Shown: in pieces, positions 13,101 to 46,406 of the stretch
How positions within the stretch are numbered: position 1 is the stretch's first letter
Layout: each line of letters begins with the position of its first letter
Assembly (NCBI GenBank): GCA_973895155.1
Contig: OZ316892.1
Location: 12,030,238-12,094,237, forward strand
Reading direction: 5' to 3'
Source: Marsupella aquatica
Taxonomy: Eukaryota > Plantae > Marchantiophyta
Length of the DNA: 64,000 nt
Notes under the pieces: model-generated
Database searches by the model: none
Seen by the model: the letters and a program-made list of their open reading frames with translations, nothing else
Told to the model about the DNA's origin: nothing
Program-made: the position numbers and the translations under genes

Positions 13101-15672
13101 CAGATTGGTGTAGTGCAAAACCTTTATGTAATTGGTAACTCTCCCACAAGAGCAGCATTACTAATGGGCGAATTTACAGGAATTTTGGATCTCCTCATGG
13201 AGTTACTAGTCTCCGGGAAAGACTTCAAGGTCCGAGTTTCTGCAGCAGATACCCTCCGCTGGTTCTGTCAATGGAAGTTTACTGCCCTGAAAGTAGCAGC
13301 CATACCAGACGCTCTCGAAAAGCTGTTCAATATGTTCGTCACAACAGAGACACTCCAACAGGTTGCATCCCCTGAGCCGCAATATGCACCCAAATATGCA
13401 TTTCTCGGCAGCCCTTCATATTTGGCAGGACAGATTTTGGGTGACCTGTCGTGCGTGCAAGAGAACAGGATCAAATTTCGTGCCCTCCAGAGCAGGTTAG
13501 ATGGGTTTGGACATATCCTGGTTCGACTCAAGGGAACTTGGCAGGGCACTCTTAGCGAGAAGCGTCGGCCTGGATTGAGGGAACGAGCTTCTACAGCTGC
13601 CGGAATACTGGCTCAGCTAGCACGGGACAAAGAGCTGAGACATTCGATTTCATTGCCTGGGCTGGAGGAAGGTTTGCTATTCTTGCAACTTATCCAGACT
13701 GCTATGATCCCCCCGTATTTCCCGCGGGACCTTCGGGTCAATAATTCTACGATGGCGCTCACAAAGCTATTTTCCACTTCAACAAACCCAAGATCGAGAT
13801 GCATCCCGACTTTGAAACAGGTACAAGAAGTATTTTCTTCTGACGAACGTCCTCCAGCGATGAGAGCGGCGGCATGCTTCAGAATATATTGGAGTCGTGT
13901 TGAAATCCATTGTGAAATGGGGGCGTACGCTGAGGCTCTTGAAAACTTGGAACTCGCTCAACTGCATCTGGACCAGTGCCGGACTCCCGATCTTGACCAG
14001 GGCCGGACTTTGGGCGATTGGTACGTGACGACGGAAGGCTTGGTGGCGACGGGGTTTCTCGCAACAAAAGTGTTGAGGTATGCAACTGCTTCGCTTGTGT
14101 ATTTAATCAAATCCCATTTGGATTGGAAAAGTCTTGATTGAAACGCGGAGATAAGTTGACACTAGGAAAAAAAATATTTTAAATCATCAATTTCATCATC
14201 AATTTCATGTGTAAGTTGTGAGGGATCGGGACAACTCTCACGTTCTAATTTTGAGCTTGGCAACTACAACGCTCGAAGTGTAGCCACCTACGTGATGTCA
14301 ACAATTGTTACCAAAGATAGGATAGACAAGAAAAATCCCTCTTCTCCAGGCTGCTAGAGGCAGTACAATCCAACCGATTGGTTCATAATGCCTTTTTTTC
14401 AATTCATAAATAAGTTATTTTTAAGGTTGAAGCCATGGTCCCAGGAGAGCCCACTGCCCGCAGGATGCTGCCCAAATTGTCGCAGTGAGATTAACTTTCC
14501 AATACGTCTTTGTGCTGAGGTGGAGTCGCTGGGTTTGAAACCGGCTGCTGCCCCAGTACTTTTGACATAAACCCCACGGGTTGGGTGCAGAAGAAGCTTT
14601 TGACACTTAGAAAGAAAATGATGATTTTTGGTTTTTGCGGGCGTTCCATGCAAACAAGCAGCGGGCAGTTTAGATCACAAATGACTTTCCAGGTTCTCAT
14701 ATGGGTTGTCCGAAGATCACAAATGACTTTCCAGGTTCTCATCTAGCTGAATGCAACCCTTGCGCACCTGGTTCATCATACCTTTAGATAATTTGAAATA
14801 AATGATAAATTATGGTCATTAGATCAAGTTAGGATATATTTTTGTTTCTAATTTTGCAGTGCAATAATTATCCTGGCTGAATAATCTTCCCGGCAGATAT
14901 GGGTTCGCCCCATGCAGGTTTTAGGCTTCCAGATATTTAAAAAAATAAGAAAATTCCAAGTTGCTCCAAGCACCCTAAAGCCCTTTCTGGAGGGTAATGT
15001 CCCCAGAAAAGCGCCCCAGGGAAGCCTGCCCTATGGGCGGGCTTTCCCCACAACAATGCCCTTGAAAGAGGGCTTCACTGTGCACTAGCTTGTGTTGTGG
15101 CGTGTGAGGAATGAAGTTACTTTTGTCTCATGCTAATATTATCTTTTGCACTTTGACCATTCAACTGACTTACTAATCTGTCTCCACAGCCGTACTAGAA
15201 GACTTCTTCAAATTTTGTCAGGGCATCATGCAGGCGCCTTACTGGATGCAAATGAGGAGGTTGAGAGCGCCCAATTGCATGCAAATGAGAAGGTTGAGAT
15301 CAACAACTACAGCCATTTCTGGCTCTTGTTATCTGCTTTGAATGAAAGAGGAATCTTACGGAGGCTCTGTGGAGATTTACAAGGTGTGGAGATTTACAAG
15401 GGGCGCTTGATGACTTGGATGCGGCTTATCAGCTGGTTCAAGAACATTGGGCCTTTAAGTACTTCCTTTTTAATATCCTCAAGCATCGAGGCTACGTCAA
15501 ATATTTGATGAATGACGAAGGTGGAGCTAGGGCAGACGCGGAAGCTGCCCTACAGCAACCTCTCCAATATACCGTTCGCACTATTACAGATGAGAGGTGG
15601 TTTTGGGACATAGATATACTACCGATAAACTATCTGGGTTATTTTTCTTCCTCTAAGCCAAGTCTCTTCTAG
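10159..15672 (+). pseudogene. NB-ARC (STAND/NLR-like) gene: N-terminal helical domain - NB-ARC - ARM-like repeats - TPR; two frameshifts
   Basis: Exons 10159(or 10066)-11235, 11512-12373, 12762-14077 and 15190-15672 with phase-compatible GT..AG introns. P-loop VFGGPGLGKS, Walker B LLIVLDDLW, RNBS-B RYLVTSQ, GLPL-like YLPLSLA. Exon 3 has ARM-like helices; the C-terminus has TPR motifs (RGILRRLCGDLQGALDDLDAA, RGYVKYLMNDEGGARADAEAAL). Lesions: +1 frameshift near 12002-12027 and a 17-bp tandem duplication (15368-15401). Confidence 0.85.
11257..11386. repeat. ~64-bp tandem duplication in intron 1 of the NB-ARC gene
   Basis: TGTCATTTTCTGTC..AACTGC.TGTACATGTCTTTCTTTTACTTGAATTACTATT occurs twice. 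Confidence 0.8.
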
Positions 15673-16802
15673 ATTTGCTTCTTTCAGTAACTTTTGCATG
15701 GTTGATGCTGCTGCTGTCCTTAGTTGATAATCAAAGGGTGTCATTAATGTTGCATATTTTTTATCAAGCAGAAATCCTATGGTCAGGCCTTGAAGGCATG
15801 CTGAGAGTTCTGGCATTTTTGAACACACAAGGCAACTGGCAGGCAACCTGCCCTAGGAGATCTTGCATTTCAGAATGCCACCAGATTGGGCAGTGTTGCT
15901 GTTGGGTTGCAAACCTTGCTGTTTCTAAACCGTGTGACATGTATTTGATCAACTAAATATCTTTGGGACAAAATACAACCCAAATTAGTAATCCCTCAAA
16001 TAAGCTTATGTGTCAAAATTAATATGAGATTACGTTGTGATAATAAATGAGCACAAGCGCAGATGTGAGGGTGAATCTAGTAGATGTGTGGGGATGAATT
16101 TAATATTATTGTTCTTGTGAGGGCTCTAGCAGAAGAATATTTGGCCAAACCCTCGGTGGGATGGGAAATATGTCCGTGGTTCTCTGACCCTCTCTAAGCA
16201 CAGACCTGAAAGGATCAGTTCTTATAACATATCTCAGTTATTGTTGAGCATAGATGACAATCGTAACGGCAAGTCCATGAACCATCCAACGCACAAGAGT
16301 CGACACAGCTCAAAATACGTGGTTCACCTCCACATGAGGCTACGTCCACGGGAACACACATGAGCTTTAGTGCACTCTAGGCCGACCGGCCATACCAAAC
16401 ATCCACAGCGCAAGCTGTCTCTATCTCTCAACTAGCTCCATAACGTACAATGAGCCTAAGTTCCTGTGACGGGGTCCCGCCACGGTAAATCACCATTAGT
16501 GTCACCAGCAAGACACCTGTAAATAAATAAGCTGATAGACGCGAGTTTTTTTTAATGTTCTTTAAATCTATAAAGTTTTTTTAAAGCATCTCGGGATAGT
16601 CGGAGACCCCAACAGTTTTGTCTAGACCCGGGTTAATTATGGGGCAAAAACCTGGGGGGGTTTAAAATTGTGACTTTCCGGGAAGGTAAGGAAGTCCGGG
16701 AAATAAGCATTTTTAATTTTTTGGTAACACCCCTTCTAAAGCAACACTCAGGCAGGACTGGAGGAGTATGGGGGGTTTAATTAAACCCCCATTAAATCCT
16801 TC

Positions 16803-22210: not shown

Positions 22211-22897
22211 AGTACACTACAACACTACCTACACCTTTTGCGAACTTGAAAGCATCGCAAACAACAAAGGAAATCAAAAAACAAAACTCGCCTTTGCAAA
22301 GTATCGCGCATCGCAATAGAATCGCAAACTGCGAAGCCCAAAGGTTCGCATCCGGTCTTTCGCAAGACCTTCGCAACGCCTTCGCAACTTGCGACACTAA
22401 TAGAATCGCAAAGGACTCACATTTAAGCGACTCGGTGGGCGTCGCGAGAGGCTTGCGATAATAATCAAGTAGTTAAATATTTGCAATCCCAGAAGTTTGG
22501 TAATTGGTTTGCGATATTAAGTTAATGGTAGTTATGCCATGAACATGGCTTCGCATTTTTGTGAACGTATGTGGTTTGCATAATGTTTGCGATACCTTCA
22601 ATATGGTAAATATGCGAATTGGGTTGTTCGCATAGGTTTCGCAAGATGTCTTGAGGCTAGGGTTTAGATTTAGAGTTTTGAATTATGGTTGGGGTCTTGT
22701 TGTCCAACACGGAGAATGAGGTCTGAATCAAAATTGCTTTATAGAAAATTGATAGGTACACAAAAATTAGGGTTTCCTAAACCCTAAACCCTAGATGGGT
22801 GTCATATGACAAGCTAGGTCCCTATAAGACTACCCATATCAAAACTATATACTACACTAAGTAAATGGGCATCCCATAGGCACTACACCACCAAGCT

Positions 22898-24873
22898 CTA
22901 GAATGGGGTCCTCCTACTCCTTGTTGCCGGCCTCTTCCCCTTGTCCCTCTTGCGATGATCCGGACGTGGCACAGGAGGTGGTGCTGGCTGCTCCTCCACA
23001 TCTGGTTCCTCCTCGTCCTCGTCCTCATCCTCTTCCTCCCCCTCCTGCTGGGAAACTCCTCCTATTGGTCCAGATCCACTACTCCCTCCTACCTTGGGCC
23101 CCTTTGTTGTGGTCCCCTCATTGTTCTCATCGGTGCTGCTGGTATCACTGGCATCCTCATCATCCTGTTTGCACAGCACAACGCCAAATTGGTTTAGGTT
23201 TACGGAATGAAAAGATAAGTGGATTGGGTGGGAAAAACTGAAGGGGATACATGCACTTACAGTCGCCAACTCTACGTCAACCAAGTCAAAGAGATGTTTG
23301 GCTCCATGCGCAGCTCCTATCTCCATCTCTTTTGCTGTTATCTTCCTGCGGTACCTCTTATACTACCACAACCAAACATTCCAAAACCAAAATCGATCGA
23401 GGTTAATATGCTATAAACCCAAGAAAAATGCATGGAGGTGCTAATAGGGTGCCCCCTAACACAAAACTGGGCTCAATAACCCTTAGCGGTTTTTTTTAAA
23501 CATAATACACACTTGCAAAACTCCCCACTTCGCAAATTCAAATAAATTGGCTGTTTGCGAAGTAGTTTGCGAAGCGAGTTATTTCGCAATAGCTTCGCAT
23601 TTACAACTTTAAAAAATGCCATGATAGACTTTGCGAAACATTTGTGAAGCAACCCGCATCGCAAAAGCTTCGCAAACTCTGTTTTTAAAAAATTCCGAGA
23701 AATCTCTAAGGCACGCAATGTGTCAGGGTGACCTAAAGTACAAGGCAGGCCGTAAGAAAGAAACAAGAGGTATGCAGGGGGGCATTGCAGGTTTGGATAG
23801 CAATTGAAAGCAAGGAAATAGAAGCAGGGGAGGAGAGGAGAGGGCCCACTCACAAAGTGTGCTTTGAGGCCGGGAAGTCCACCTTGGCCCATCTTGTGCG
23901 TGGTCTTGGGCCGTTTGCTGACTCGCTCAGCTGCAAGGATGAATTTTTGGGGTGGTGCACCCACTTCATCCACAATGTGTTGCATGTGAGACACTTTCTC
24001 AGCCATTGCCTTGAGCTCTCGGTCGGACTTCCCGGCCTTCTGTGCCTTGGCTTCCATCTCCTTCCAGAAGAGAAGGTTCCTGGCAGCTCTCATCTACACC
24101 TCCACTTTGTAAAAGACATTCCACACGTCCTCAGTGAATTGCAGTGGCCTCCTCACGTTTCTGTACTCCTCCAAGTTTGCCAGGTAGGCCCTTACCTTCT
24201 TCCTATCATGGTACCGTGCTTGAGACATTGAATTGGAAATTCTATCTGCAAGCCACTGTTCATCAATCTCTGCTCCATTTCGAAATGAATCTTTGATTTG
24301 ACTCATTACTTTCTTCTGGTCTGCCTTGCTGAGTTTCCCCCACTCAACTCCTCGTGCAAAATTGGAGCGCACCATAAGCCTGATAGTGCTCTTTGCCCCG
24401 GTGTAGGCCAGTTCAGTAGGAATGCCTTCGATCAAGGCAATCATAGGCAGCTTCTTCCTCTCTTCCTCCTTCTTTCGCTGCTCCTCCCGCTGTGCTCTTA
24501 TCTCATCTCGTTCCTCTCTCCTCCTCTTCTTTTCTAGGGTAGCAGGTGAGACTACTCCTGCCTTGGCCCTCTCCTCCTTCTTACGCTTCTTCTCTCTTGC
24601 CTTCTGTTGAGCTGCACTCCTTTGCTCCTCCTCCCTTGCAATGTTCCCTGCATCTACTCCCGTTTGCAAGGCTTGCCCAAGGATTGCACTCAAAGAAGCA
24701 ATCCCTGCTGGTGTAGTCAAATCTAAGTGGCTCAACTGTGCTGCATTGAGGTGCTCAACCATCAAATCGGTCCATTGATTCCTCTCCTGCTCCCCATTGC
24801 CTTCATTCCCATTGCCACTGTCACTCACCCCTGCCCCATCACCTCCATTTGCTCCATTGGAATCCATAGCCAA
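22898..24873 (-). pseudogene. TnpA/Ptta-like (Transposase_24-type) gene of CACTA 1, spliced, with an in-frame stop
   Basis: RPLQFTEDVW..F and ..HKMGQGG motifs resemble the En/Spm Ptta family; TAG at 24094-24096 splits two same-frame ORFs; donor GTGAGT near 23853; acidic C-terminal exon. Confidence 0.6.
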
Positions 24874-26149
24874 GCCACCCCTCGAGCGCGCGCGAGCTCC
24901 CTTCTCCCTCCCTACGCTTGAAATTTGTCAAATGCCGCTGAGTACGCCGCGGCCGAGTGCAAAAGTACAAGCGGGAAAGACTTGCGAAGCAACCCGTTTC
25001 ACAAGTTGCGATTCTTCTTGTTTCGCATATAGTTTCTCAATTTTGCGAAACCATTGCGACGTGAAAGGCTTCACAACACCTTCGCTCTCTCACAGAAATG
25101 CTCTCGGGCTCTGTTTTTCTGAAGGTCGTGCGAAAGCAGCAGCTTCGCAAACCTCAATTCTAATTTGTGATGGTATTTGCGAAGGAAGCGGCTTCGCAAG
25201 ACATTGGCAACTCGTCCTGGGGGAATGTTGGTTTCATTTGAAAGGGTTTTTTCAAAGGTGAAGTGGACCCCTCTATACTCATATTTGGAATGCTTTTTGG
25301 CCATGTTTTGGGTGTTAGATAATAGTTGAAGGCGGGTTTGAAGGGTTAGGCAGATTTCAGGTTAATGGGTTATGTATGGTGTTGGTTTAGGCTAAGGTTT
25401 GGGTTTATATTAGTTTAGAAGAAATAATAAAGGTGTGGGATTTGGTTTACAAGAAATAAGTAAGGTTTGGGTTTAGGGTTTTAGGGTTTGGGGTTTTTAA
25501 ATAGAAAGGTCTCTAGGGTTGAAGAAAGGTTTGGGTTTGTGTGTAAGTCAGATTTAGGTTTAATAGGAAGGAAGGTTTGGATAAGACAAAGCAAGGTTTC
25601 ATGAGATTTATATTGCAGCCTTTTGGGTTTAAGAGAGGTTCATTGGGTTTATGAATCAAAAGGGGATTGGCATGGGTTTTGCTAACAAAGGAGGGGAATA
25701 TATGATAGCTTGCAGGGGGCGGCACTTTTTGATGATTTGATACTAATGCATATGCATTGTGAGAGCCCGGGCATCTGAAAGGTAAACATTGCATGATCGG
25801 CTAAAGTGTTCCTTTCATGTACTTAACACTTTTGGTTGCCACTATGTATAAAGGGGACATGTGTATAGGGTTTTTTGTTCTTGTCTGGTCCAGATTATTG
25901 TGCTTACATATACATGGAATGGTTGCAGCTTTTCCCTCATACTTTCAGATTGGGTTCATTAATTATCTTACAGCCACAAGACCTATTGGCACTGCTGAGC
26001 CCGGGTCTCATAAAGGTACCTTTTTTATTGCTATGGTCATTTTGGTTTGGGTTTCTTGTCATCATTATTTGGGAACTTTGATTTATATCATTTTGTGGTA
26101 TGTTTTGGTCATAACATGCCCATTTTAATTATATCTTGTTACAGGGGAT

Positions 26150-27299
26150 ATGTCTTCATCTTCTGAAATCTCCACCACAGACTCGTCCTCCTCTGATGAA
26201 GATACACCACCTCCACCTCAACATCACACGACCGCACCTCCTCCTCGCGGTCCACCCCGTCAACTTTGTGAATGTTCCAGATGTGTGGGTCAGGTTTCCC
26301 AAAAATCTTACATATGTGCCCAACATATTGAGAGATATGGGCGTTGTGGACGTCATACGGCAGGGGCTTCTTCATCTCATATGGTAAGTGTTATGCCTTA
26401 GTTTTCCTACCCTATTCCCATTACTCAATGGTTGAAGGTTTGCAATTTCACACCTACTTTTGTTTGTTTTGGTTTCGGTGGAATAGGTATCCAATAGGCC
26501 TAGACCTGCGGCACAAGCACCCTATGTCCCATCACAAGGTGTTCTAGATGCTATAGGCAATGCATTCTCAAAAGCCTTGGGTCTAGCAAGGCCCACCAGT
26601 CCTAGGGAAGTTGGGGTTGAGGCTATTGTCCCAAGAGGGAGAAAGCGTTCCAAGAGGCGGGCCCGAGGGGATACTGATTTGTACAAGGCAGTGGTTACGG
26701 GTCGGTGGGGTGATTGTGAGTTCACTGGCAGATGTGTCCCTATCATCAAGGACTGGGATCCTGAGACTCTTGGTTTGCCACAACAGCTTTCCTACGGTGC
26801 GGAGGTAGAGGTTTGGGGTAGACGTTGGGTTATCAAACCTTCCACAGTTGGGGATAAACATGGCTATGGATTTTTTGCCTGTGAGGACATCATTGTGGAC
26901 GCCGAGAGTGGTAGAGGTGGACGCGGCCGAGAGGGGCCTACTTTGTTTCCTTATGGTGGACCCATCTACAAGAGAAGACATTGGAACATGATCCTTGCAC
27001 AACACCCTGAGTGGAAGACTTATGCATTGGACATGGATACTTTTGATGGAAACACTAGAAGGTATAGTGAGCAGCGTGTCATAGATGGGGACCCCATACG
27101 GACTGGGAATATTGCTGGTTTCATAAACAGTACCGTGGGGACTCGCCCTAAGCGTAGGCAAAATTGTGAGTGGGTTTTCATTGAGGGTCCTCCGCCAGCA
27201 CCTTATGGCCAGACATATCATCATGACCATTGCCTAGTTGTAGCAACAAGGACCATTAACTCAGGGGATGAGTTATTTACTCAATATGAGTGGGATTAG
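26150..27299 (+). CDS. Two-exon SET-domain protein (348 aa) with an N-terminal transposase-associated Zn motif, inside CACTA 1
   Basis: Exon 1 26150-26383 (CECSRC..HIERYG; donor GTAAGT, phase 0); acceptor AATAG| before 26487, in frame. SET motifs: IKPSTVGDKHGYGFFACEDI, PYGG, IDGDPIRTGNIAGFINS, NCEW, ATRTINSGDELFTQY. Confidence 0.85.
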
Positions 27300-27475
27300 G
27301 GTTAAGTTAAGGGTCATAGGTGGTATGTTGCATATCAAAGGACACTACATATGGCCTTTGGCCACATTTTGTATTTGCACCACAACCAATATTATTTCAT
27401 TTTTGCACACCCCTAGCCCATTTTTGTGTGTGTTCTCTTTGCAATATAACTTTCAATTGTTTGCTTTGTTTTTAG

Positions 27476-30400
27476 AATGTGCGACCCTCTCCAAATATGT
27501 TACCACGGAGATTGAGAGCAACATATCGAGAAATGGGTATGCCAGAAGAAGGACATGGATCAGAGTCACACTCCTCATCAAGTGCTAGTGGAAGCAGTAA
27601 CCCTGATGAAGAGGTACCTCAGACGGATGAACAAGTAACTGATGACCAGGATAGAGCCATGGATGACTTTATGGTTGATTGGTTTGGTGCCGAAAACCTT
27701 GGTGATGACCTTCCCAATGAAGGGCAGGTGCCCCCCAATGATCCATGCCCAAGACATACCCCTGAGGGACAACGCCAATGGGAAGAAGCAGAGGAACATG
27801 CCCGAACACCTATCTATGAGGGTGCTCGTTTGAGTCGTCTTTCAGCCATCTTGGGGTTGATGAACCTATAGGCCAAACACAAGGCAAGCAATGCCTTGTT
27901 ATCTGATATGTTTGCACTTTGCCATGACCTTATGTTGCCCACTGAGAATGTGTTGCCAGCAACTTGGAAGGAGGCAAAGAGTGTTCTCTCATCTATTGGC
28001 ATGGAATATCATATTGTTCATGCATGTGTGAATGATTGCATGTTATTTCATGGGGCCAATGCAAACATGACACAATGTACAACATGTGATGAGCCTCGCT
28101 ATGACCCCAACATGCTAACAAAGAAGGTGCCAAGGAAGGCTGTTCGTTGGTTTCCCATCATTCCTCGGTTGTTGCACATGTATCGGTAATCTGACTTGGC
28201 AGAGTTGATGGTATGGCATAAGACTCATCGATCAGAGTCTGGTGTCATGCGGTTGCCAGTTGACTCCCCTGCTCACAAACATATTGAGGCAACATGGCCA
28301 GACTTTGCACATGATCCTTGCCATGTGAGGCTGGGATTGGCATCTGATGGAGTTAGCCCTCATTCACTTGGAGGAAAGGGGCAACCTACATCAGTTTGGC
28401 CTGTGGTTGTCATGAATTATAACTCCCACCATGGCTATCCATGAAGAAGGGGTTCCTTTTATTGTCTTTGATTATCCCAGGTCCAAAAAAGGTGAAGAAC
28501 TTTGACACTTACTTGGCACTATTGGTTGGAGAACTTCAAAAATTATGGAATGGAGTGTGGGCATATGATGGCAGGAAAATTACAGGAGGTTTTCCACGTG
28601 TCTTTCAATTGAGAGGGATCATTTGTTGGACAATGCATGACTATCCTGGTAAGATGACTTCCATGCCATTTGCAACCCTTCAATAATGTGTAGTTCCTAG
28701 TGATGTTTCTCATGTGACAACTCTAACATAAAATTTGCATGGTTTGATTTCTTCTATGTAAGCAGGGTTTGGTTTTGTCTCTGGATTGCAAACTCAGGGG
28801 TACAAAGCTTGCTCTACTTGTGGCCCAAGCTTAGAGGACATGGCCACATATTGTTCATGGATTAGAAAGATTGTTTATAATGGGCATACAAAGTTTCTTC
28901 CCATGGGGCATGAGATGAGGTTTGACCTACTTCTATTCTCCTCCTTTGACATGCCATTTGGTGATGAGCGTGAAATTCCTGATGTAACAAGTTTTGCACA
29001 TTGGAAGTCACTAGCTGATAGGGTGGCAGACCCAAATGATTCCTTCACCTTTGATAGGACAGGTTTGACCAGGTGGAGTATACTAGCCACTTTGCCCTAT
29101 TGGTCTGAGTTGAAGATCCGTCATCTTTTAGACCCCATGCACATAGAGGGAAATGTGGGGAAGGCTTTGATAAAGCATTTTTATGGGGAGAAGGACACTA
29201 ATTTTAGGGAGGCATGCAAGGAGATGGAAATGCATCCAGATGTTTGGGTGACAATTGATCCTATCACAGGTGTGAAGAATCGTCCTTCTGCTCCTTGGGT
29301 GTTGAGTGTTGGCCAAAGACGTGAATTTCGGAACCGTATAGGAGAGATGCGGTTTCCTACAGGCTATGGTGCTAACCTTCGAAAAGCTTTTGGGATGGAG
29401 GACAATCACAAGTGGCCACGATATCTAAAGACACATGACTATCATCGCCTATTGCAACATATATTGCCAGTGGCAATTATAGGTATAGGGAGTGAAGAAG
29501 TGCAAGATGTCATCTGGTCATTGGGTCGTTTGTTGAGATGGATATGCTCAAAGGAGATATATGTAGAAGAGATCCCTGGGATGGAGGTATTGGCAGCTGA
29601 GGTGGTATGCAAGTTGGAGAAAGCCCTTCCTCCTTCCTTCTTTGATTGTCAGGTTCATTTACTTGTGCATCTTGTGCGGGAGGTTGCCATTGCAGGTCCA
29701 ATGTATTGTAGATGGATGTATTGGCTTGAGCGTTACATGGCGGTGTTGAAGGCTTATGTACGTAACCGTGCACGGGTGGAGGGAAGCATAGCTACAGGAT
29801 ACTTGGCAGCAGAGAGTATGTTTTATTGTAGTAACATCTTGGCCACCATTGATCCTACTTGTCCACGTACTTGGATGGAGGAAAGAGAAGAGGAGGAGGA
29901 CCGTTTAACAGGTGCCACAAAAACACGCATGTTGATATCAACACTCCACAGTTGACAACATTTATGTTGAGTAATAGTAATATCATGGAGAAATGGAGAG
30001 AGTTTTATGAGAATGCCAAGAGAACAAGTCAAAGAGCAAGAATTTTTCCTAAGATGCATGAGTATATGAAGCAAAAGTTGCTTGAGTTGGATGACATGGT
30101 GACACAAGGAGGAGATGTGTCCCACTTTCCTACCATCACAGATGACGTTCGGACCATTGTTCATGGCCCTTTGAGAGTGGTGACATCCAAGACGGCTATG
30201 TGGACACAAGGGAGACACTTCAGGTCCACTAGTACCTAACCTTTCTTCCTCTATTAATTCATGTAGACCTTATTTTGATTAGTTATTTCTATTGTTTAAA
30301 AACTTTCTATTATCATTAATGACATCCATGACTGTAATGTTGGCTTCTATATTTATGCCATAGGCCATGTGGGTTTTGGCTATTTAGGGATGGGTGTCAT

Positions 30401-30961
30401 ATTTTGATGATTATTACATTAATGGTATCTTTTACAGTGTAATAAAAATTTGTGGGTTTTGTTAATTTCAGGGTTTCTTCCCTTGATGAGAAGAGGGGTC
30501 GTACTTTTGATTGTGGAGTTCAAGGGGAATTTTCTCAAGACTCCAGAAGCAGCCGCCATGACAGGAACATTGTTAGAGATGTTGTGCCACACTATGGGAA
30601 GATAGAGGAGATCTTGGTGGTATCATATGACAACCATTCAAAGTTTGAGGAATATGTCTTCAAGTGCAAGTGGTTCAAAGTGAACCTTGTTGGTCAAAAT
30701 TGCACTGTACTTCAAGATGAGAGTGGGTTTACACGGTTGAAGACAAGTGCCACTAGTGTTCAAGCATCTCATTGGCAAACGTCAGAACCATTTGCTTTCC
30801 CATCACACTTGGAGCAATGTTTCTACATTCCATACCCCTTAGACACCGAGTGGTCAATTGTCATCACCTATGTGCCACGTTCTCGTTCCATTGTTTCTGA
30901 GAAGCCAGATGTTATTGTATCAGACCTAGATGACCTTGAGGCCGATGAGGACCAAGTGTGA
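27476..30961 (+). pseudogene. TnpD/Tnp2 transposase of CACTA 1 (Transposase_21, DUF4218, DUF4216 regions), disrupted
   Basis: HACVNDC..C..C, GLASDGVSP, MHDYPG, LDPMHIEGN, LKTHDYH, PPSFFDCQVHLLVH, WMYWLERYM, FKCKWF, EPFAFPS. Introns 28649-28765 and 30224-30471. Stops at 27869 and 28187; frameshifts near 28425 and 29935. Probable exon 1 is 26150-26383. Confidence 0.92.
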
Positions 30962-31959
30962 GGGACATATTTATATGCACTTGGGTCCAGCCTAGACATT
31001 TGTTCATGTTATATTTGATTTGTTCATGTTTGGTGATATAAAAAAAAGGATTGTCTATATTTATATTTGCCATTCACTTTGGAATGAGTCATACTCATGA
31101 CATATGTATTGTATTGTTTTATTGTGATCACTTGTGAATTTTACATGCAACTTTCTATCTAACCTTTGTTGCTCAATATAACTTTATTTCCTACTTATTC
31201 CATAATTTTCATTCTCACTCTCGTGTTTCCCTCCTCCGTGGTACGTTTGTCCCTCCTCCTCCCTTCCTCTTTCTCCTCCCTCCTTCCTCTTCCATTGTAC
31301 TCCCTCCCTTTTCCATCCTTCATTGTACCTCCCTCCATCCTCCCTTCCTCTTCCCTCCTGCCCCATCCATATATTGGACCATCCACCCTCTTCATTGTCT
31401 CACCTCACAATAATCTTAATTTTTAGTTTGCAAACAATTTGCGAAGCTCACAAACTCTCACCGGACTCGCAATTTCTATGAATCTTCTTGTTTCTCAATA
31501 TTTCCATACTACACTCTTTGCACACTTGTGATGCAAAATCAATCACAAATTTCATATTTTCACCGTTTCGCAAATCTTTCATCCTCCGACATTCTTAAAC
31601 TTGTCAAACAACTACTATCGCAAAACATTTTCAATCCAATCTTCTTCGCAAATATTTACATGAGTTAGTTTCAGAGTCGGCGAGCGATTTTTCCATCTTC
31701 GGAAGGCGCCTTTCTATTCGACGCGTTTCGGTAAAATTTGCAAAACCACGTACTTCGCAATTTATTAGCGATATAATGTACTTCAGCTATTATATTTGCG
31801 ATAGGGATAGAATCGCAAATTGTGATGCGGGTTGATTCGCAAAATATGCAAAGCGCCGCCCATCGGAAATACAAGAGCGTCGACAAACATACCTTCGCAA
31901 AAGTGTCAAATATGTTGTAGTGAGTAGAAGTAGGATGGGTTTGTTATTATCAATTGCGT

Positions 31960-34900
31960 GCCTCATGGAATGTTTGTGGCTTGTGCAAGCCAAATAGAAA
32001 ACATGTAGCGAAAAACTGGGTTTAGACTTCCTTGAAAATACCTATGATGGCTCTTTGTTAGAATTAACTCTTAGGTCTAGAGTCACAACTATATTGCTGC
32101 ACACACACTATCCCCAAATGGTGTTTGCTTGGATAGTGGGAACTCAGGCTCATTGTTACGGAGCCAGTTGAGAGATAGGGAGAGCTTGTGCTATGGATGT
32201 TTGGTATGGCTAGTCAGCCTAGATCGAGTGTAGTATAGCCAGAGTATAGCTCTTGTGTGTTCCCGTGGATGGAGCCTCATGTGGAGGTGAACCACATATC
32301 TCTCTCTGTCGACTACATGATTGTTGGATGGTTATGGGCATGTCGTTGTGAATGTTGTCTATGCTCGATCAACACTCTTGCCTTACAAGAAGTGAAGGCG
32401 AACGTTTTTAGATTAGTCAATGCAATGAGACTTCTTCTTCCTAGATATGAGGCAGTCTCTTCTTTTCCAGATGAGGGGAGAGGAGGGACATCATTACTTC
32501 TACATCTATTGCTGAGGATTCTTGAATCAAGATTAATTGATAAAGGGCGAGCAGTATGGGTAAGAGTGGAACACACGAAAGGAAATTTTGGGCTCATTAG
32601 CATTTATGCTCCAAACTCCCCACAGGAACACCCTTTACTTTGGCACAAACTTAAAAATGTTTTGCCTCAAGAAAAGTGGATATTTGCGGAGACTTTAACA
32701 TGACAAAAAGCATAGACGACTCATCTGGACCTTCACCACTTATTAAGGGAAGAGAGGAGGAGTTCTGGAGGTTTCTAAAAATGAGACTCAACCTAGAAGA
32801 TGCAATCATCATTGTTGAACAAGAGTATGAAGGCTCCAAATTCACTTGGAGAAGAACGATCAATGGAAGGCTTGTACAGTCTCGACTTGATAGATTTTAC
32901 CTGAGTGAAAGAGGATGGTGGACAGGTGAGACTGTGAAATTAAAACATGATAGAGGATCTGCATGCTCTAACCATGACCCGATTCTTCTCAGGTTCAGAC
33001 TCATCGGGAGACTCATGGTAGTGGAAGTGGAAGAGGAGGGAATGTAGTATCACACTAGGAGCATAAATCAGTTTTTAAGGTCCAAAACGTTACTGGTATT
33101 TGTTCCCATGGAAAAACAAGTAAGGAATGATTTTCTATCATTTAACACTTATGAATGACTAAGGTAACAAAAACCCAGGTTTGAGCCTTTTACTATGGTT
33201 GTTCATCAAGGCATAGATTTGAATGTTTGCTTAACATTGTAAATAAAAATAACAAAATGGAAAAAATTAACAAAATACAAGGAAATCTTGAGGTATAATG
33301 ATGGAGTCTGAAAAACACCCAGGTAACTTCTCCTCAATATTTCATTTGATGTGATTTAGGTGGTATATCCATAAGAACATTTTTGGCAAGGATTTTTATT
33401 TTATTTTATTTTATTTTAATTTTATTCCGCGTGAACCCCACGGATGGGGAAAACAAGCAGGCCAAAAGGTTTTGGCAAGGATTATTGTACTAGGATGATC
33501 ACTAAAATGCCGTCAACACGTCTCAAGTTTTTCTTCCAAAGGTACTCAGAAGAAACTAGTCACCAATCACTTTGATATCCAATCGGTACTCCGAGTCACG
33601 AATAATAAACACCATCATGATCAAATTGAAGTCATAAATCATTGATTGTAAGTAATTATTCTTAGCATCCCATGCTCAAGCAAGGTAACGCCAACAATTA
33701 TGCATCAAGAACTCAAGAAGATGGGTTGTCACCACTTAAAGAACCTATTCCCTCATACTTCTGAAATTCACCCTCATACTCTTTTTGCCTGAACAAAATG
33801 AGCTTGTGTCTCTCTATTTGGGCTACTAAATTCCTCTCCTTAATTTACTGGAAGAACCATTCTTGTGAAACATGTATTGCAAGCAATCCCGATTTACCAC
33901 ATGATGTTTTTACACTCATCAGAAGCATCGGTCAAAACTATGATAACTTTATGCCTAGATTTTCTTTGGGGATAGAAAGTGATGGGAGGGAAGAAAATTC
34001 CCCTCGTGGTGTGGGGACAATTACCCGACCCAGAGTTGATGGAGGTCTGGGCCTCAAGAATTTTAGAAGCCACTCAGATGCTCTTCTTAGTCAATGGTTT
34101 AACAAGACTCTAGATTCACCTGCATCGGAATGGGCTCAGTTACTTTATGCCAATCTCAAACTTGCAAAATGGAGAAATAGGAAGGGCATTAGAAGGAATG
34201 GCTACTCTTTAGTGGATTGTCTCTTGCTCTGCTACCCCAGATCATTCAGTGGACTCATGTACACGGGTCATCTATGGAAGGCGTGGACAACATTACGTAA
34301 GCATCTTATTTTCTCCCTAGGTGAGTCAACGGTGGAGGATGTACCTTGGGCCCTTTTCCTGATTACCCCTTGTTATTTCCATTTTAGTATTAAAAGTTCC
34401 CTTATTACCGGTAATAATTATAATTATTAGTTCACGTCCTCCATGTATTAGTTAAGACTGAGGGCTCAGGGAGGATGTACTTAGATGTATCGAGGGTTTT
34501 CAGGTCCTGGATGATGGTTCTATATGTGCCATAGTTAAAGGATGTGGACGAATTGGCCTGAGTGAAGAAAATATCAGACTTTGGCAAGGATGGAGTGACT
34601 CCTGACAATTTAGGAGACAGGCTTGACACGATCAGAGGGATGGAAGTGGATATAAAGGAGTTATGCCTTTGGTTCATTTCCTCCATTAGATGCACAATAG
34701 ATAGGGCTATGACAGGTGGTTGGGCCTTCCAGTGGAATGGTCAGATAAGGATGTGAGACTTTGCAAGTTCACTATTCCTAATGCAAGAATGTATGATTTG
34801 CTGAGGCCTAGAGGTTTGGATTACATTAGACTTAATCGGATCTGGGAGGCGACAGTTGCAGAACCAGAATGGAAAATTATTTGGCTTTCAGTATGGCAGT

Positions 34901-35380
34901 CTGCACTTTCTCTGAAATCTCACACATTTATATGGAGAATATTGGCGCAAGGACTTTTCATCGGAGACAAGGCTCTCAAGATTGGGAAAGGTAATGGCAA
35001 TTGTGGATTGTGCTCTATTGAATGGAAAACTATCCCACACATTTCTTCAAGTGCCAATTCGCTATTAGAGCTTGGAATTTAGTCTACAAAACTGTTTCCA
35101 AAGATAATTACATGGCCTGACCTCGACCCTCTCTCGCTGATAAAAGCATTTAAAGGTTCCAATTTCCAGTCAATAGTACTCTCTTTCATAGTTTTTCAGG
35201 TCTTTTGGGCTCTTTGGCTGGCAAGGAACAACAAGTTATTCAACAATGGCAGAAACAGGTCTTTCAATCTAAATAATATTCTCTCTAAAATGCTAGCTAG
35301 ATCATTTACATGGTCTTTGTGAGTATTCAGGGCCAAGTAGGAGACACACTCGGCTATTAAGGAGTTAGGACTGAAAGGCT
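31960..35380 (+). mobile_element. Fragmented L1-type LINE ORF2 (endonuclease, RT C-terminal part, zf-RVT)
   Basis: ASWNVCGL..ALQEVK, SIYAPN, GDFN, FTW..SRLDRFY, NHDPI; later TITRPRVDGGLGLKNF and FIWRILAQGL..CGLC. The RT core is missing (unrelated sequence ~33050-33880). Confidence 0.85.
32056..32374 (+). mobile_element. Solo LTR, family A (copy 3), inserted in the LINE endonuclease
   Basis: TGTTAG...TCAACA ends; perfect TSD CTCTT (32051-32055 / 32375-32379); removing it rejoins ..PMMAL/ALQEVK. Confidence 0.9.
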
Positions 35381-35384
35381 GAAG

Positions 35385-36960
35385 AACAAGGAGGCTCGAT
35401 TCCATATTTGTCATAGTTGAGCTTGGATATTCCTTACGACCTTTGATCCACCTCCCGTAGCTTGATCTTGTATATCCACTTGCTGTCCACCACTTGCTGA
35501 CCCTTAGGCAGCTTAACAAGCTCCCAAGTTTTGTTGTCCTTCAGTGACTGCATCTCTGTTTGCATTGCTGCAGTCCACTTCTACTTCTCCTTTGAAGCAC
35601 TTGCCTCATCAAATGAAGAAGGTTCCCCTTCTTCCAAAATTAACGCATCACCCTCATCATCAGCTGCAAAATCGTCCTCTTGCAGTTGAGATGAATCAAC
35701 CCACTGTCCATACCTAAGAGGAGCGCATACAGTGCGACCAGATGTTCTTCTAGCCGATGACTTCGGTTGAATTACGTCTACTGGTACAATTTGAAGCTCA
35801 GCAGCATCTATTTGCTGCTCAGCAGCATCAACAAACTCCTCTTGTTCCTCTGACACAGGAACCAGCTCCATACTTGGAGCACCTCCTTCTCTCCAATCAT
35901 GCACTTCATGATCAATCTCCCCCTCAACAAGATCCGAGATATGAGATTTTCCTTTGTCAATACGGGAGACCTGAGTATTCTCCCCCTCCTTCAATAATCT
36001 AGATTCATTGAAGGAAACATCCCTACGGACAAAGAGCTTACAGGCAATAGGATCCCATAGCCTGTAGGCCTTCACACCACTCTGATACCCAAGAAAAATA
36101 CATTTCTTGGATGTAGGATCCAACTTGGTCTTATTTTGCTTTGGTGTGAGAGCATATGCATCACTTCCGAAAACTACCAAGCCATGATAGTCTGCTTGCC
36201 ACTTATAACGCATTTCAAACGTCGTTTTGAAATTGATTGCACTAGAAGGAGAAAGATTTACCAAATAAGCTGCAGTATTGACAGCTTTTGCCCAAAATTC
36301 TTGTGGTAAACCTGATTGGCTTAGCATACTCCGTGACCGCTCTAATAGTGTTCGATTGAGCCTCTCAGCGACACCATTCTGCTGTGGAGTATAAACTATG
36401 GTGAGATGACGAGTTATCCCCTGTTCTGCACAGTACTCTTCAAATTCTATTGAAGTGTACTCCTCACCGTTGTCTAACCTCAGACCCTTCACCCTGGTAT
36501 CCAAACACTTAACCGTGTTTCTCGTTTGATTCTCCACTTGGGCCTTTCGTTTTGTAAAAATGGACAAGACATCAAACTTATGCGTCATGAAATAAATTCA
36601 TACAAATCTCAAGTAATTGTCAATAAAAGATACATAGTACAATTTTCTAGAATGTGAAGGAGTCGGGGATGGTCTCCACACGTCACTATGTATGTACTCA
36701 AGAATCGCTTTGGAACAATGAGTTTCAACACCAAAAGCACGATGATGTTGCTTTTCAAAAATGCAATGCTCACATAAATCCAATTTACAAGATTGCAAAT
36801 CAGAAATGAGCCCATTCTTTCGCAAGATAGTCGTGAATGCCATAGTTGAGTCATTTTCTCGTGAGACTTGGTTACATTGGCCTCTCCATATACTATATTG
36901 CCCTGTAGCACATACAAATTATTCTATCTGCTCCCCTTCAAAATCATTGTCTCTCCCAAC
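35385..36960 (-). mobile_element. Ty1/copia pol fragment (GAG-pre-integrase, integrase, start of RT)
   Basis: LWHSRL, CEHC, IHSDVW, LRLDNGEEY, YTPQQNGVAERLNRTL, KLDPTSKKCIFLGY, EPSSFDEA, then W..AMQTEMQSLKDNKTWELV. Integrase precedes RT; stops and frameshifts present. Confidence 0.9.
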
Positions 36961-37150
36961 ATGACTTGAAGTTCTCCATCAATTACTCGCCATTGATGAC
37001 CATTCACTAGTACATTTTATCTCCTTTTTCCGATTCTCTCCACATCGGATGCCTTTGTAAAATAAATTTTGAAAAACCATACATCCGATACTACTAGCAT
37101 CGCAACATGCCATTTTAATAGTATCGGATATCGACAATCGGACTTCTATC

Positions 37151-37303
37151 GGAAAGTCCGATGGTGGGAGAATGGGAAAGTCCGATGCTAGGAGAATGGG
37201 AAAGTCCGATGGTGAGAGAATGGGAAAGTCCGATGCTAGGAGAATGGGAAAGTCCGATGGTGAGAGAATGGGAAAGTCCGATGCTAGGAGAATGGGAAAG
37301 TCC
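37151..37303. repeat. 24-bp minisatellite with two strictly alternating variants (48-bp higher-order unit)
   Basis: GGAAAGTCCGATGGTG(G/A)GAGAATG alternates with GGAAAGTCCGATGCTAGGAGAATG; 6 full units plus a partial one. Confidence 0.9.
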
Positions 37304-38320
37304 AAAGCAATCAAAATGGGATATGCATTTCAGCGGACGCGACATGCTCAGGTCACCCATCTCTTCCGATCCTTTAATTGGGTTCTACTTTCATTTGGAA
37401 CTATGAGCTAGGTGCCCATTTCCCTTGACATGTGAACTCTTCAAATTTTCTCAACTAATTGGTCACCCATCCCAATTGCTATTCCTCCAACACACTAGTA
37501 GAAACCGGGGGGTATTTAGACCCCATTAAACGACTATTCAGTACCGTATAGGACTTGGAAACGACTGGGAAGGACTCCAGTCCTTTATAGGACTGCGAGT
37601 CGTATGTTTTGTTACTATAATCAACTGAGTCCTTTATAGAACTGGTTTATAAGTCGTTTAATAGATTGGATTTTCAGTCTATTTTAGTCTTTGTGTGGGT
37701 AGCTTTGGTGAGTCGTTTTCAATCTTTTATGGGCTGCGATGGTGAGTCGTTGGGAACGACTAAAAAGGTTATGGAGGGTAGTCTTTAAATATACTTTGTG
37801 GGGTATGTATAAGTCTTTCATGTCAACTGGATATGAGTGATGAAGACCCCACTATACTACTTGGAATGAACCCACTCTTGTGCACAAATAACATATTGCA
37901 TTCATGTTTTATTGTGTACTTGGAATGAACTCACTCTATAAGTTCACCATTCATTATGTTAACATTAGAATACATAGTTTCATAAAGCCATCTTCTATAC
38001 CATGTACACTAATATGAATTCACAGATTCAAACTTCATAGACTACAAAGAAGGTCACAAAGTATTCCTCTATACCATACACACTAATACTGAAATGATAC
38101 AAAACAGATTCAAGTATCATAGACAATCACCATAGAGCCATAGTTTGACATCAATCACTTGTTTCATACATACAGAATTCAGAAATATCAATGTCACACA
38201 CAACGGCTCCTTCATCCTCTTTACCAAATGGAAAAATTGGTACAGATATGTCTTGGATCTTTCCAAGGCAATGTCAAAATGTGACACAATTCACATGATT
38301 CTATCTACACTTGCATTCAG

Positions 38321-41300
38321 TCACTGCAGACTAACACACTCTGATGGCCAAAGCACAAGAGATCCTACTGCATCTGCAATTATTTCCTGAGGTGGATCAT
38401 CGTCTCTATTCGGAAATGGCAAATTACAATCAGATACAATCACTGTAGTCAACAACACTACTACATGGTCATCCGGGACCACTTTGCCATGGAATTTTGC
38501 ATGGTCCGGTCGCAAAATGCCTGTACCCACACATACCTGCGAGTCATCCTCCCATGATAGAAGATTATGGACTGGCTCTGCTGTGGCTATCACCTCCACC
38601 TTACCCTGGTTGTTTTTCTTGGCTTTCCTGGGTGGCTTATACATGACATTATTCATACCTTGGTTGCGAGTCATGACTTTGGCACGAGTGTTTTGTGCTG
38701 GTGATCGAGAATTGGCTACACTCTTCTTCAAAGAATCTGCATCCATATTTGACACTTCTGATTGTGTAGCAGGATTTCCCTGCGACATCATCTCAGTATC
38801 TGCCAACATTGTACTTGCTTCAATTGAAGCATCTACAATCTTACTTGCATCCAATGTTGCTCCCAAGTTTCGACGTCGCTTCACCCTGCTCCCACTTGGT
38901 TGAGAGTCTGTCAACTCTGCATCAACTACAATTCAGTGTCATGTCCAACATAAGTCAATCACTCATCACATGTGCTAAATGTACATGTCACCAACCACAA
39001 AGTTGTCACTATCTCCTTACCATTATGAACAGCCTTCTTCCCCTTCTTTGCCATTGCCATATGCTCCATGTCTGCTTCTGTTGATCAATAAACACACCAC
39101 AATATTCAAGTTGAATCTATTAACCACTGAATTGTTTCTCAACATTCATATAGAGGAATTTAAAGCATCAGCTTACCTGATACCTCCTTGGCTATGGTCA
39201 CTGAGGCACTGGGCACATCTTCTTCATTATTGCTCTTTGAATCACCTGATACATCAATCATGATGTCACTTCAGATCCCAGTTCATCCAACCAGTTCTTA
39301 CAGAAAAGATTACCTCCAACCGGCTTAAGCTTCACAAAACTCCATGCACTTTTCAAATGTAATGTACTGGATCATAGCAGGTTACCTGTCTCAGCAACCT
39401 TCTTGCCCTTCTGCTTACTGATTACAGGGTCCTTCTCTGCCTCCACTCTTCTTGCATTCAAACCATTCACTCAATTCATGAAAACTTACTTCTAACATTT
39501 GAACATAGGACACAATGAACAATGGGCCGGTGTCATTTCCATACCTGTGTCAGATTTGCCAATTCCCTTTTTTGTTAACAAGGGCACACTTTGTACAATG
39601 TTGCCCTCATTGTTTGGTTGGGAACCACCCAATTTTTCAATCACAAGCTTGAAATTAGATTCCACTGATGCAAGAAGGTTCGCTACAGATGCCTCCACAA
39701 TATCCAAACGATCAGCCAATTTACTTTCCACTCGAGGGAGTCCACACTCTAATGACTTCAACCGTTCACACATCTCTGTGAGAGTTGTAACAGTTCCCTG
39801 TCATAACACAACTTACATATCTCAGATAACTGTCCCCAAGAACTGGTTGCTTACTTCCTACTACATTTCTTTCTGATGCTCAAGGCCAAATAGTCACAGA
39901 ACATACAGAATTACAACATAATCACCTGTTTGGAAGTTACACTTGTCACCTCACTCCTTTGTTTCATGAACTCCTCTCTCACTTCTTGTGCTGATGGTTC
40001 TTCACCTGTCAATTTCTTCTGCAGTCCACATCAACATACATATGAATGAAACCAAGTGTTGATTGTCAATGAAAATGTAATAATGGTAGCAAGATGATAA
40101 GTTTGAGGCTTACTATCAGGCATGTCACTGCCTTACTAATTGTTCTTTCACTGGAGCATAACTTCCTCTCCCAGCCTGTGAAAGGTGTTTCACTTTGCCT
40201 CGAGCATTTGACATCAGTTCACTCTTGCTCTGTCCAGCCTCCGACATGAACCCTTTGATTAACCATGTCCATTGATCCAGTTCCAATGATGGGGGTGGTG
40301 GCATTCTCCTGTTAGAACCATTGTCTATCCACATCCTTTTCAACCTATGCCTCTCTTGTTTCAAAATCCTCATTGCATAATCTGATATGCAATCTTCAAC
40401 TGGGCCCTTACCATCATTACCAACATACTCCCACCGTTCAAGAATGTCCTTGCAGATAGCAGCCCAATCAGCTTTGTTCTGACTCCTAAACTCTGTAATG
40501 CTCAAATCTAACCAACGCAATACTTCTCCTCTTAGGTCAGAATGCCAACGGTTCTTACCATCACATGTGGGAGTTATCCAACCTTCGGAATTCACTTCTA
40601 CTTTACCAAATTTGTTATTGTCTCCTGCCTTGGTACTCCCTGAAGCGCTACTAGGTGTCCCTCCACGGCCTGGTGTCCCCCCACGGCCTGGGGTCCCTCC
40701 ACGGCCTGATCTCCCCCCACGGCCTAGATTGCATTGTCCAAACCTCCCTGGAGTCCCTGCACATTTACAGGATCCATTTACAGTCACTTACATTAGGTAA
40801 GTATGAATCATAAATCCCGCTGCCAAATATACAGTGGACTTCAGAGCAATTCTGCAATGACCAAGTTACCTCTCCCTTGGCGCATAGATGGTTCTGGACC
40901 ACCTGTCCTATTGCTTTGTCTTGATGAATTAGGGGCATTTCTCCCGCCTGTGAATGATTGCCTCCTATCTGAACGTGGATGGCCTTTGTTGTTTTCGTGA
41001 TTGTCCCAATCAGAGTCTGCATACCAACAGGTACATGCCACACTCATGGACCTGTAAGATAAACTCTTTGCCCTAGCTACACATCAGATAAGTGCATATT
41101 GAGCTAAATCTCTACTACCATCACAAAATCACTAGCACAAGGCACTTACTTGTCCAATCATCCTCCTCACCTTTCCATTGCCCTCTGTACCCGTCTCTAC
41201 CACGCTCTGGGTGTTCATATTCATCCCATCCATCTTCTGCTCCATCATAGTCATCATCATAATTATCAGGCGTCCCTTGCCAATAACTCTGGCTCCTTCT

Positions 41301-41492
41301 AGGGTATGGATTATGTGATTTCTCTCTAGCTGCCCACCTACCTGGGACTTGATGAGGGCCCTGTGCATCCTGCACAGGTGCATTTTTCTGTGAGCCCCCT
41401 GCATCTGGGTCTCCATCCATATCCAATCTTTCCTCTTCACCCCACTCTCCAAGCCCCATGTCTGTCTCCATGTCATCACCCTCTTCCCCCAT
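38321..41492 (-). CDS. Multi-exon TnpA-like protein of CACTA 2 (Ptta/Transposase_24-like plus C-terminal TNP1/EN/SPM-like domain)
   Basis: PPPSLELDQW..SEAGQSKSELMSNAR..SQAGRGSY (40125-40787); VGTG..FHGK..VVV..LPFP..DAVGSLVLWP (38321-38914); acidic and RGG-rich N-terminal exons. The exact exon chain is not fully resolved. Confidence 0.7.
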
Positions 41493-41669
41493 AGCTTCTG
41501 CACAACACCCACAACCAAACAGGGAGAATCAGCACACTAAATTCAAAGTATCAATCAATTTCATGCATATCCAACTATCCTAAACATCATTCCAGGCAGC
41601 AATTCCCGTTCTGTGACTCTGTGCAGGTAGTCATCCTCAACCTCATACTTGCCAATCGCCAGCTGTTGC

Positions 41670-46170: not shown

Positions 46171-46406
46171 GCACGATGCAACCCGTAGGAGGACCCTACA
46201 TAGGGCCTGACGGTCTGGAAGAGGCAGCATACCCACCAAAGTCTTCAGCCAAACAGAGCCCAGCAAGTAGATTCACAGTCACACCCCACGCAGCAGGAAA
46301 CAACAATCACTTCAACTGCGACCAACCATGACAAGATGAGTTAGTTCAAGGATCACATTTATTACAAAATTGTGATTTATACAAAAATATGAGGGACTCC
46401 TACTCC

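What the first reader, a model, noticed from the sequence alone, without database searches (positions are those of the whole stretch)
26150..27480. SET-domain exon nested in intron 1 of the transposase gene, sharing exon 1
Seen: exon 1 (26150-26383, transposase-associated CxCxxC..H Zn motif) ends in phase 0. It can splice in frame either to 26487 (SET exon, stop at 27299) or to TTTTTAG|27476 (TnpD body). All of this lies within matched TIRs. Inference: the element produces a TnpD isoform and a Zn-finger-SET isoform from one locus, i.e. a transposon-encoded candidate lysine methyltransferase that could mark its own chromatin. The SET frame is intact, whereas TnpD has at least four lesions and TnpA one. 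The domain has no pre-/post-SET Cys clusters, and the canonical RFINH reads GFINS, so activity and substrate are open questions.
Basis: partly seen in the sequence, partly recalled or inferred. Interest (0 to 1): 0.9.

Follow-up and report, generated by a model that had tools for sequence, protein, structure and literature searches.

The report
Bryophyte transposon with intron-nested SET enzyme
A jumping gene of mosses and liverworts carries, between the first coding exon and the body of its own transposase gene, a conserved exon for a predicted histone-marking-type enzyme, and it likely makes either this enzyme or the transposase from the same first exon.

Summary
Observation confirmed. A 9.7 kb CACTA-type element (22215-31922) holds a zinc-motif exon (26150-26383, phase 0), an intact SET exon (26487-27299) and a broken TnpD body from 27476. 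Both joins are in frame. It is no one-off: 35 of 42 related loci carry exon 1 upstream or TnpD downstream, the three splice sites keep place and phase, and the SET core evolves under purifying selection (dN/dS 0.22-0.27). The domain folds as SET (pLDDT 92; Z 12.2, rmsd 2.6, 124 aligned). GFINS is no decay: G..NS is the family norm over 116 distant clusters. The Asn and the active-site tyrosines are kept; the C-terminal cofactor lid is missing, so activity stays open. No RNA run was available: neither junction is shown here. The intact SET frame in this dead copy is expected by chance (P 0.36). Transposon-borne SET genes are published (HarbingerS, MuDR, Helitron, red-algal Plavaka); this exon-sharing layout was not found in ten literature searches. 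This scan noted the same family before in peat-moss DNA (three notes, one claiming RNA support, untested here). New variant of a known kind.

The parts
22211..22214 (.). AGTA left of the element, repeated right of it (possible 4-bp target duplication)
22215..22224 (+). left terminal inverted repeat CACTACAACA
   Evidence: the same terminus lies 3.5-3.8 kb upstream of SET in L005, L008, L040, L041 with three different flanks
22238..22644 (.). left subterminal TTCGCAA cluster
   Evidence: 22 of the window's 25 copies lie in the element; 5.6 expected in the whole window
22898..24867 (-). TnpA-like second gene, divergent; exon 24867-23854, next exon from 23362; stop at 24094-24096
   Evidence: found upstream on the opposite strand in 11 of 42 loci; no Pfam hit, so the name is inferred
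23529..23675 (.). internal TTCGCAA cluster in the TnpA-like intron
   Evidence: matching cluster in L008 and L040
24982..25199 (.). internal TTCGCAA cluster in the gap between the two divergent genes
   Evidence: matching cluster in L008 and L040
26150..26383 (+). shared first coding exon, CxCxxC-x13-H motif, phase-0 donor
   Evidence: dN/dS about 0.2 for codons 32-78
26384..26486 (+). short intron GT..AG, 103 nt, T-rich
26487..27299 (+). SET exon, 270 codons and stop; basic cluster PRGRKRSKRRAR at 26631-26666; folded domain from about 26670; G126/G128 at 26862/26868, Y156 26952, Y179 27021, N214 27126, Y267 27285
27300..27475 (+). non-coding spacer: likely 3' end of the SET transcript and the distal acceptor of the long intron
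   Evidence: role inferred
27476..28648 (+). TnpD exon 2 (Tnp2 domain); stops at 27869 and 28187, frameshift near 28422
28766..30223 (+). TnpD exon 3 (DUF4218); frameshift near 29945
30472..30961 (+). TnpD exon 4 (DUF4216)
31439..31900 (.). right subterminal TTCGCAA cluster
31913..31922 (-). right terminal inverted repeat (TGTTGTAGTG)
31923..31926 (.). AGTA right of the element

Best explanation
A CACTA-type transposon family of bryophytes carries a conserved SET-fold exon between the zinc-motif first coding exon and the body of its TnpD transposase gene, and likely splices that exon to either partner, giving a transposase or a zinc-motif-SET protein that is predicted to be a minimal lysine methyltransferase and would act on the element's own chromatin. 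Shown: order, phase, conserved splice sites, purifying selection, SET fold, kept Asn and tyrosines. Inferred: use of the near acceptor with 3' end formation before 27476 gives the SET protein; skipping to 27476 gives TnpD, so the two products compete for one transcript. Inferred more weakly: the shared zinc motif and the basic cluster bring the enzyme to the nucleus and to the element (its internal TTCGCAA clusters, or TnpA bound there), where methylation helps the element stay expressed. This copy is dead. Odds by step: two isoforms 0.85; active enzyme 0.55; own chromatin as target about 0.35 overall.
For: In-frame joins. 35 of 42 loci have exon 1 upstream (19) or TnpD downstream (24); the other 7 are a short contig and six truncated SET pieces. 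Where my patterns found the site: donor GT 21 of 21, near acceptor AG 26 of 28, far acceptor AG 19 of 21, same phase as in the window although the spacer does not align above shuffles (36 of 200 reach it). SET core dN/dS 0.22-0.27 in 7 of 7 comparisons. Gene models from Calypogeia and five Sphagnum species join exon 1 to SET at the same point; P0052, a Logan record, has motif and SET in one 423-aa protein. SET and TnpD identities fall together from 70/80% to 32/42%. Model pLDDT 92.3, pTM 0.88; all listed Foldseek PDB rows are SET proteins. In alignment A2: N214 78 of 88, Y267 67 of 72, Y179 81 of 87, GxG 72 of 77 and 75 of 78. The best PDB sequence match, LegAS4 (E 4.7e-7), has Phe for the His and methylates H3K14 (10.64898/2026.05.29.728679, passages); five of the six residues mutated in its dead allele have counterparts here by my count on the alignment. 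No phase-0 donor inside the SET exon at my threshold, so no SET-TnpD fusion.
Against: No junction observed. No exon 1-TnpD model among 318 proteins held. TnpD has a conserved Met eight codons into its exon. The protein ends 3 residues after the last Tyr; LegAS4 Tyr231 and any post-SET lid have no counterpart, and the motif Arg is Gly (78 of 88). Y156 is Phe in 23 of 82 relatives. No SET class stands out: top Z values 12.2 to 11.1 span Set1, EZH2, SET8, SET7/9 and LegAS4, so no substrate can be named. The loci are nearly all copies of one family, so the site counts are not independent, and among those copies SET decays near neutrally (pN 0.053, pS 0.063; stops in 6 of 10). The zinc motif's function is unknown.
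Confidence: 0.4

Rival explanations
1. Same two isoforms and an active enzyme, but the substrate is not the element's chromatin: it methylates TnpA, TnpD or a host silencing protein, or histones genome-wide.
For: No reader domain or pre-SET region; fold as close to SET7/9 and SET8 as to Set1; TnpA has a long lysine-rich tract. From established knowledge, SET7/9 has many non-histone targets (recalled).
Against: Basic NLS-like cluster and internal motif clusters resembling the VANC21 target layout suit local action, but only by analogy.
Confidence: 0.22
2. The SET domain is a conserved pseudo-enzyme: it binds a histone tail or competes with TnpD through the shared zinc motif, and the splice choice mainly limits transposase output.
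For: No C-terminal lid, Arg and His of the cofactor motif replaced family-wide, Y156 often Phe.
Against: Cofactor-side GxG and Asn and the last Tyr are kept down to 26% identity, which a binder would not need; an active enzyme also lacks the His.
Confidence: 0.2
3. Exon 1 belongs to the SET gene only; TnpD starts at its own Met (27497) from a separate or read-through transcript.
For: MLPRRL is conserved in 4 of 4 aligned; no exon 1-TnpD model found.
Against: AG and N[IV]RPS upstream of the Met are conserved in place; P0104 has Val there; the neighbouring CACTA has its Cys/His domain fused to Tnp2; only 176 nt lie between the SET stop and the exon.
Confidence: 0.13
4. A passively captured host-gene fragment or one-off insertion.
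For: CACTA elements often capture fragments (recalled); copies decay neutrally.
Against: dN/dS about 0.23 between families, fixed position, co-divergence with TnpD, 116 clusters and no canonical host SET among the sequences I read.
Confidence: 0.03

Closest known systems
Maize En/Spm and Arabidopsis EN/SPM3, 7 (TnpA and TnpD by alternative splicing)
   Same: CACTA termini, Tnp2-type transposase, two products from one gene (PMC13547354 and 10.64898/2026.08.24.746577, passages).
   Different: Here the TnpA-like gene is separate and divergent, and the alternative product is a SET protein; 'SET domain' occurs 0 times in either paper.
Red-algal Plavaka (EnSpm lineage) PAG2
   Same: EnSpm-related transposon carrying a SET domain (10.1101/2025.02.11.637652, passages).
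   Different: PAG2 is described as a separate accessory gene with an adenine-methylase domain; no exon shared with the transposase in the passages seen. Sequence kinship was not tested.
HarbingerS and MuDR of Phytophthora; SET-carrying Helitrons
   Same: DNA transposons carrying SET genes (PMC12730594).
   Different: Other superfamilies and hosts; the Repbase Reports were seen only as citations.
VANDAL21 VANC21 anti-silencing
   Same: Element-encoded factor; short motifs clustered in introns, intergenic and terminal non-coding regions (PMC5735166, passages), as for TTCGCAA here.
   Different: Mutator superfamily; VANC is a separate DNA-binding protein causing DNA hypomethylation; which protein binds TTCGCAA is unknown.
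Legionella LegAS4/RomA SET domain
   Same: Best PDB sequence match (E 4.7e-7; Z 11.1, rmsd 2.6, 130 aligned); lacks the motif His.
   Different: 23-26% identity; has a cSET helix and ankyrin reader that are absent here; keeps the Arg. No common origin shown; no relative found in prokaryote or viral contigs.

Membership tests
CACTA/EnSpm (strict) | TIRs starting CACTA and ending TAGTG | tested here: met
   22215 and 31922, 10 bp
CACTA/EnSpm (strict) | 3-bp target site duplication (PMC4158355) | tested here: not met
   GTA left, AGT right; a 4-bp AGTA match instead, one insertion only. Filed as CACTA-type within CMCT, not as strict CACTA.
CMCT clade | CA..TG termini, 2-5 bp duplication (PMC12730594) | tested here: met
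   a 4-bp match in purine-rich flanks could be chance
CMCT clade | TnpD-type DDE transposase with C(2)C and H(3-4)H | tested here: met
   PF02992, PF13960, PF13952 above cut-off; LASDG, CSTC, LDPMH, HDYH(RLLQH), WLERY present; catalytic assignment recalled
CACTA/EnSpm (strict) | second ORF of TnpA type | tested here: inconclusive
   conserved divergent gene in 11 of 42 loci, no PF03004 hit
CACTA/EnSpm (strict) | subterminal short repeats (recalled) | tested here: met
Transposase-associated domain PF13963 | profile match of exon 1 | tested here: inconclusive
   no hit for the window exon; 1 of 11 family sequences (P0074) E 0.031, below cut-off; an exon-1 profile ranks the neighbouring element's PF13963-bearing ORF second of 995 at E 0.14
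SET domain (fold) | PF00856 match and SET fold | tested here: met
   (61 of 91 members)
Active SET lysine methyltransferases | GxG motif, cofactor Asn, catalytic tyrosines | tested here: met
   mapping to LegAS4
Active SET lysine methyltransferases | canonical RFxNH motif (recalled) | tested here: not met
   G 78 of 88 and S 82 of 87; His also absent in active LegAS4
Active SET lysine methyltransferases | post-SET or cSET segment closing the cofactor site | tested here: not met
   3 residues follow the last Tyr; tails of 67 relatives run 2-48 residues without a shared motif
Active SET lysine methyltransferases | methyl transfer from SAM to lysine | not testable with these tools
   needs an assay
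Host plant SET classes (SUVH, ASHH, ATX, E(z), ATXR5/6) | pre-SET, AWS, CXC, PHD, SRA or post-SET Cys regions (recalled) | tested here: not met
   SET is the only Pfam family in 91 members at E 0.01
Alternatively spliced transposase genes (En/Spm type) | both junctions seen in RNA | not testable with these tools
   no RNA holder listed; laid runs showed no such joint

The most novel reading that the evidence does not exclude
An old bryophyte transposon lineage writes its own histone mark with a lid-less SET enzyme of a new subfamily, delivered by the transposase's own N-terminal zinc motif, and a single splice choice trades enzyme against transposase: a self-made chromatin anti-silencing switch present in many copies per genome.
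Probability: 0.3. Interest if true: 0.88.

Novelty: new variant of a known kind. Interest (0 to 1): 0.62.

Why it matters
Transposon-borne SET genes are catalogued, but the passages I read report no function for them. This family is compact, high in copy and sits in transformable plant groups, so the question whether a transposon can write its own histone mark becomes directly testable. The shared exon would couple enzyme and transposase output. The domain defines a minimal SET subfamily without the usual lid. Practically, many 'SET domain-containing' gene models in Sphagnum, Calypogeia and Riccia annotations are these transposon copies and would inflate counts of host methyltransferases.

Tried and rejected
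No whole genome held, so no survey of copies in this host. No RNA holder listed; eight runs laid gave no 26383>26487 or 26383>27476 joint; their kind is not on record and X1 and X4 contigs run into the intron, so this says nothing on splicing. A 26389>26518 skip in X1 has unknown letters between and looks like a diverged subfamily. First fold from 34 close sequences failed (pLDDT 37.9) and its profile found no PDB match. Search for longer fused forms: none among 1773 candidates, weak evidence. Gene models that run from inside SET into TnpD (P0028, P0070, P0078, P0089, P0100, P0101, P0121, P0126) break at different points; I treat them as prediction artefacts that show gene order only. No relative in prokaryote or viral contigs with the close alignment; the broad alignment could not be used there. 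No locus held both ends, so the duplication length was not checked elsewhere. Tree (67 of 91 rows kept, midpoint root, no outgroup) places the window beside P0007, P0002 and the Calypogeia protein; it cannot show origin or transfer. Rows L031 and L005 were dropped from alignment A3 for internal stops. PMC11982613 passages held nothing relevant.

Full report
Observation. The sequence shows what was described. Exon 26150-26383 ends in phase 0 at ATG|GTAAGT, and both 26487 and 27476 follow an AG and continue in frame. The two non-coding stretches are 36-38% GC and T-rich against 46-50% GC in the exons. The SET exon passes Pfam's cut-off. The element runs from CACTACAACA at 22215 to its complement at 31922; the flanks share AGTA, 4 bp, and no 3-bp duplication. 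Of 25 TTCGCAA in the window 22 fall in the element, in four clusters. TnpD has two stops and two frameshifts, the TnpA-like gene one stop. Placing five lesions at random leaves exon 1 and SET clean with P 0.36, so the intact frame says nothing special about this copy.

Family. A protein search gave 39 relatives, named ones from Calypogeia, Sphagnum and Riccia. A metagenome scan gave 42 loci. Exon 1 lies upstream in 19, TnpD downstream in 24, either in 35, the divergent TnpA-like gene in 11; the remaining 7 are one short contig and six truncated SET pieces. Four loci reach the same left terminus with three different flanks. Eight public runs hold the element or relatives at many depths, and other copies lack the 28187 stop and the 28422 frameshift. 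A profile search found 116 clusters at 50% identity; 6 of these carry the Cys/His motif and 6 carry TnpD sequence; context is unknown for most.

Splicing. Where my patterns located the sites, the donor is GT in 21 of 21 loci, the near acceptor AG in 26 of 28, the far acceptor AG in 19 of 21, and the joins read in frame. Nearly all loci are one family, so the real comparison is three lineages: window, that family and L002. The short intron still aligns above shuffles (0 of 200), the spacer does not (36 of 200), yet the far AG and N[IV]RPS stay in place. Annotations of Calypogeia and five Sphagnum species join exon 1 to SET at the same point; whether RNA backs them I could not see. No held protein joins exon 1 to TnpD (0 of 318). 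No phase-0 donor lies inside the SET exon at my threshold in the window, L003 or L008, which argues for an alternative last exon over a SET-TnpD fusion. No RNA run was listed, so neither junction is shown.

The domain. Between the window and related loci the SET core has dN/dS 0.22-0.27 (7 of 7), exon 1 about 0.2, TnpD core 0.08-0.12; among sister copies it drifts near neutrally, as dead insertions do. With 91 diverse sequences the model reached pLDDT 92.3. Foldseek and VIA-align list SET proteins: SET8 E 2.1e-7, Set1 Z 12.2 (rmsd 2.6, 124 aligned), with EZH2, SET8, SET7/9 and LegAS4 within about one Z unit. GFINS is the family norm. LegAS4, the best sequence match, reads RYINF there and methylates H3K14; its dead allele changes Tyr135, Ser158, Tyr159, Asn181, Tyr220 and Tyr231 (10.64898/2026.05.29.728679, passages). 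By my count on the printed alignment these match Y156, T178, Y179, N214 and Y267; Tyr231 has no counterpart because the protein ends three residues after Y267. So the catalytic core is kept and the lid is not. The zinc motif's link to PF13963 is only hinted.

Mechanism. Most likely one promoter region drives the TnpA-like gene leftward and a transcript rightward that yields either zinc motif-SET or zinc motif-TnpD (inferred, 0.85). The SET product is probably a methyltransferase (0.55). Its target is a guess by analogy: motif clusters in an intron, the intergenic gap and the ends recur in L008 and L040 and resemble the VANC21 layout (PMC5735166, passages); TnpA of Arabidopsis Spm3 hypomethylates its own family, so TnpA may equally be the binder. 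Rivals are a non-chromatin substrate, a pseudo-enzyme, and a separate TnpD start.

Prior art. SET genes in HarbingerS and MuDR (PMC12730594, passages) and in Helitrons and EnSpm-lineage Plavaka (10.1101/2025.02.11.637652, passages) are published; alternative splicing in En/Spm too. Ten searches (listings read, passages of eight papers) showed no report of a SET exon sharing the transposase's first exon or of this bryophyte family. Repbase, subscription journals and supplements were not seen and may hold it. Earlier notes of this scan describe the same layout in peat moss; I had my reading before them, and the RNA claim in e1-7304180 is unchecked here.

Verdict. Real, conserved and selected; a new arrangement of a known kind; enzyme activity and target unproven. 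Interest 0.62.

Noticed in passing
window 38300-49800, - strand: A second, unrelated CACTA-type unit (TnpD 45397-41670, 34% to the first; weak Transposase_24 at 40787-40125) with upstream ORFs: tandem BRCT 47270-46407 (E 6.5e-14), three NSD-type PHD matches 48561-47854 (below cut-off), F-box-like 46272-45697, Cys/His ORF 49776-49204. No SET in it; ends not found. Possibly a second chromatin-cargo transposon.
   Followed up: partly
window 22211-22214 and 31923-31926: 4-bp flank match instead of the usual 3 bp.
   Followed up: partly
window about 29362; L013 2627-2774: A TnpD intron of about 150 nt in related loci is absent from the window copy.
   Followed up: no
window 26143-26149: AG five bases before the ATG, also in 9 of 16 loci, suggesting an untranslated upstream exon.
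   Followed up: partly
window 26487-27296 against L001-L015: SET dS about 0.7, lower than TnpD dS 0.9-1.8 in the same comparisons; extra constraint or module exchange, unexplained.
   Followed up: no
window 10066-15700: Multi-exon NB-ARC gene with HEAT-like repeats.
   Followed up: no
window 60200-64000: Array of about 560-600 bp units, six or more copies.
   Followed up: no
window 32200-37400: Decayed LINE pieces (endonuclease, zf-RVT) and a Copia-type integrase region with a 24-bp tandem repeat at 37124-37345.
   Followed up: no
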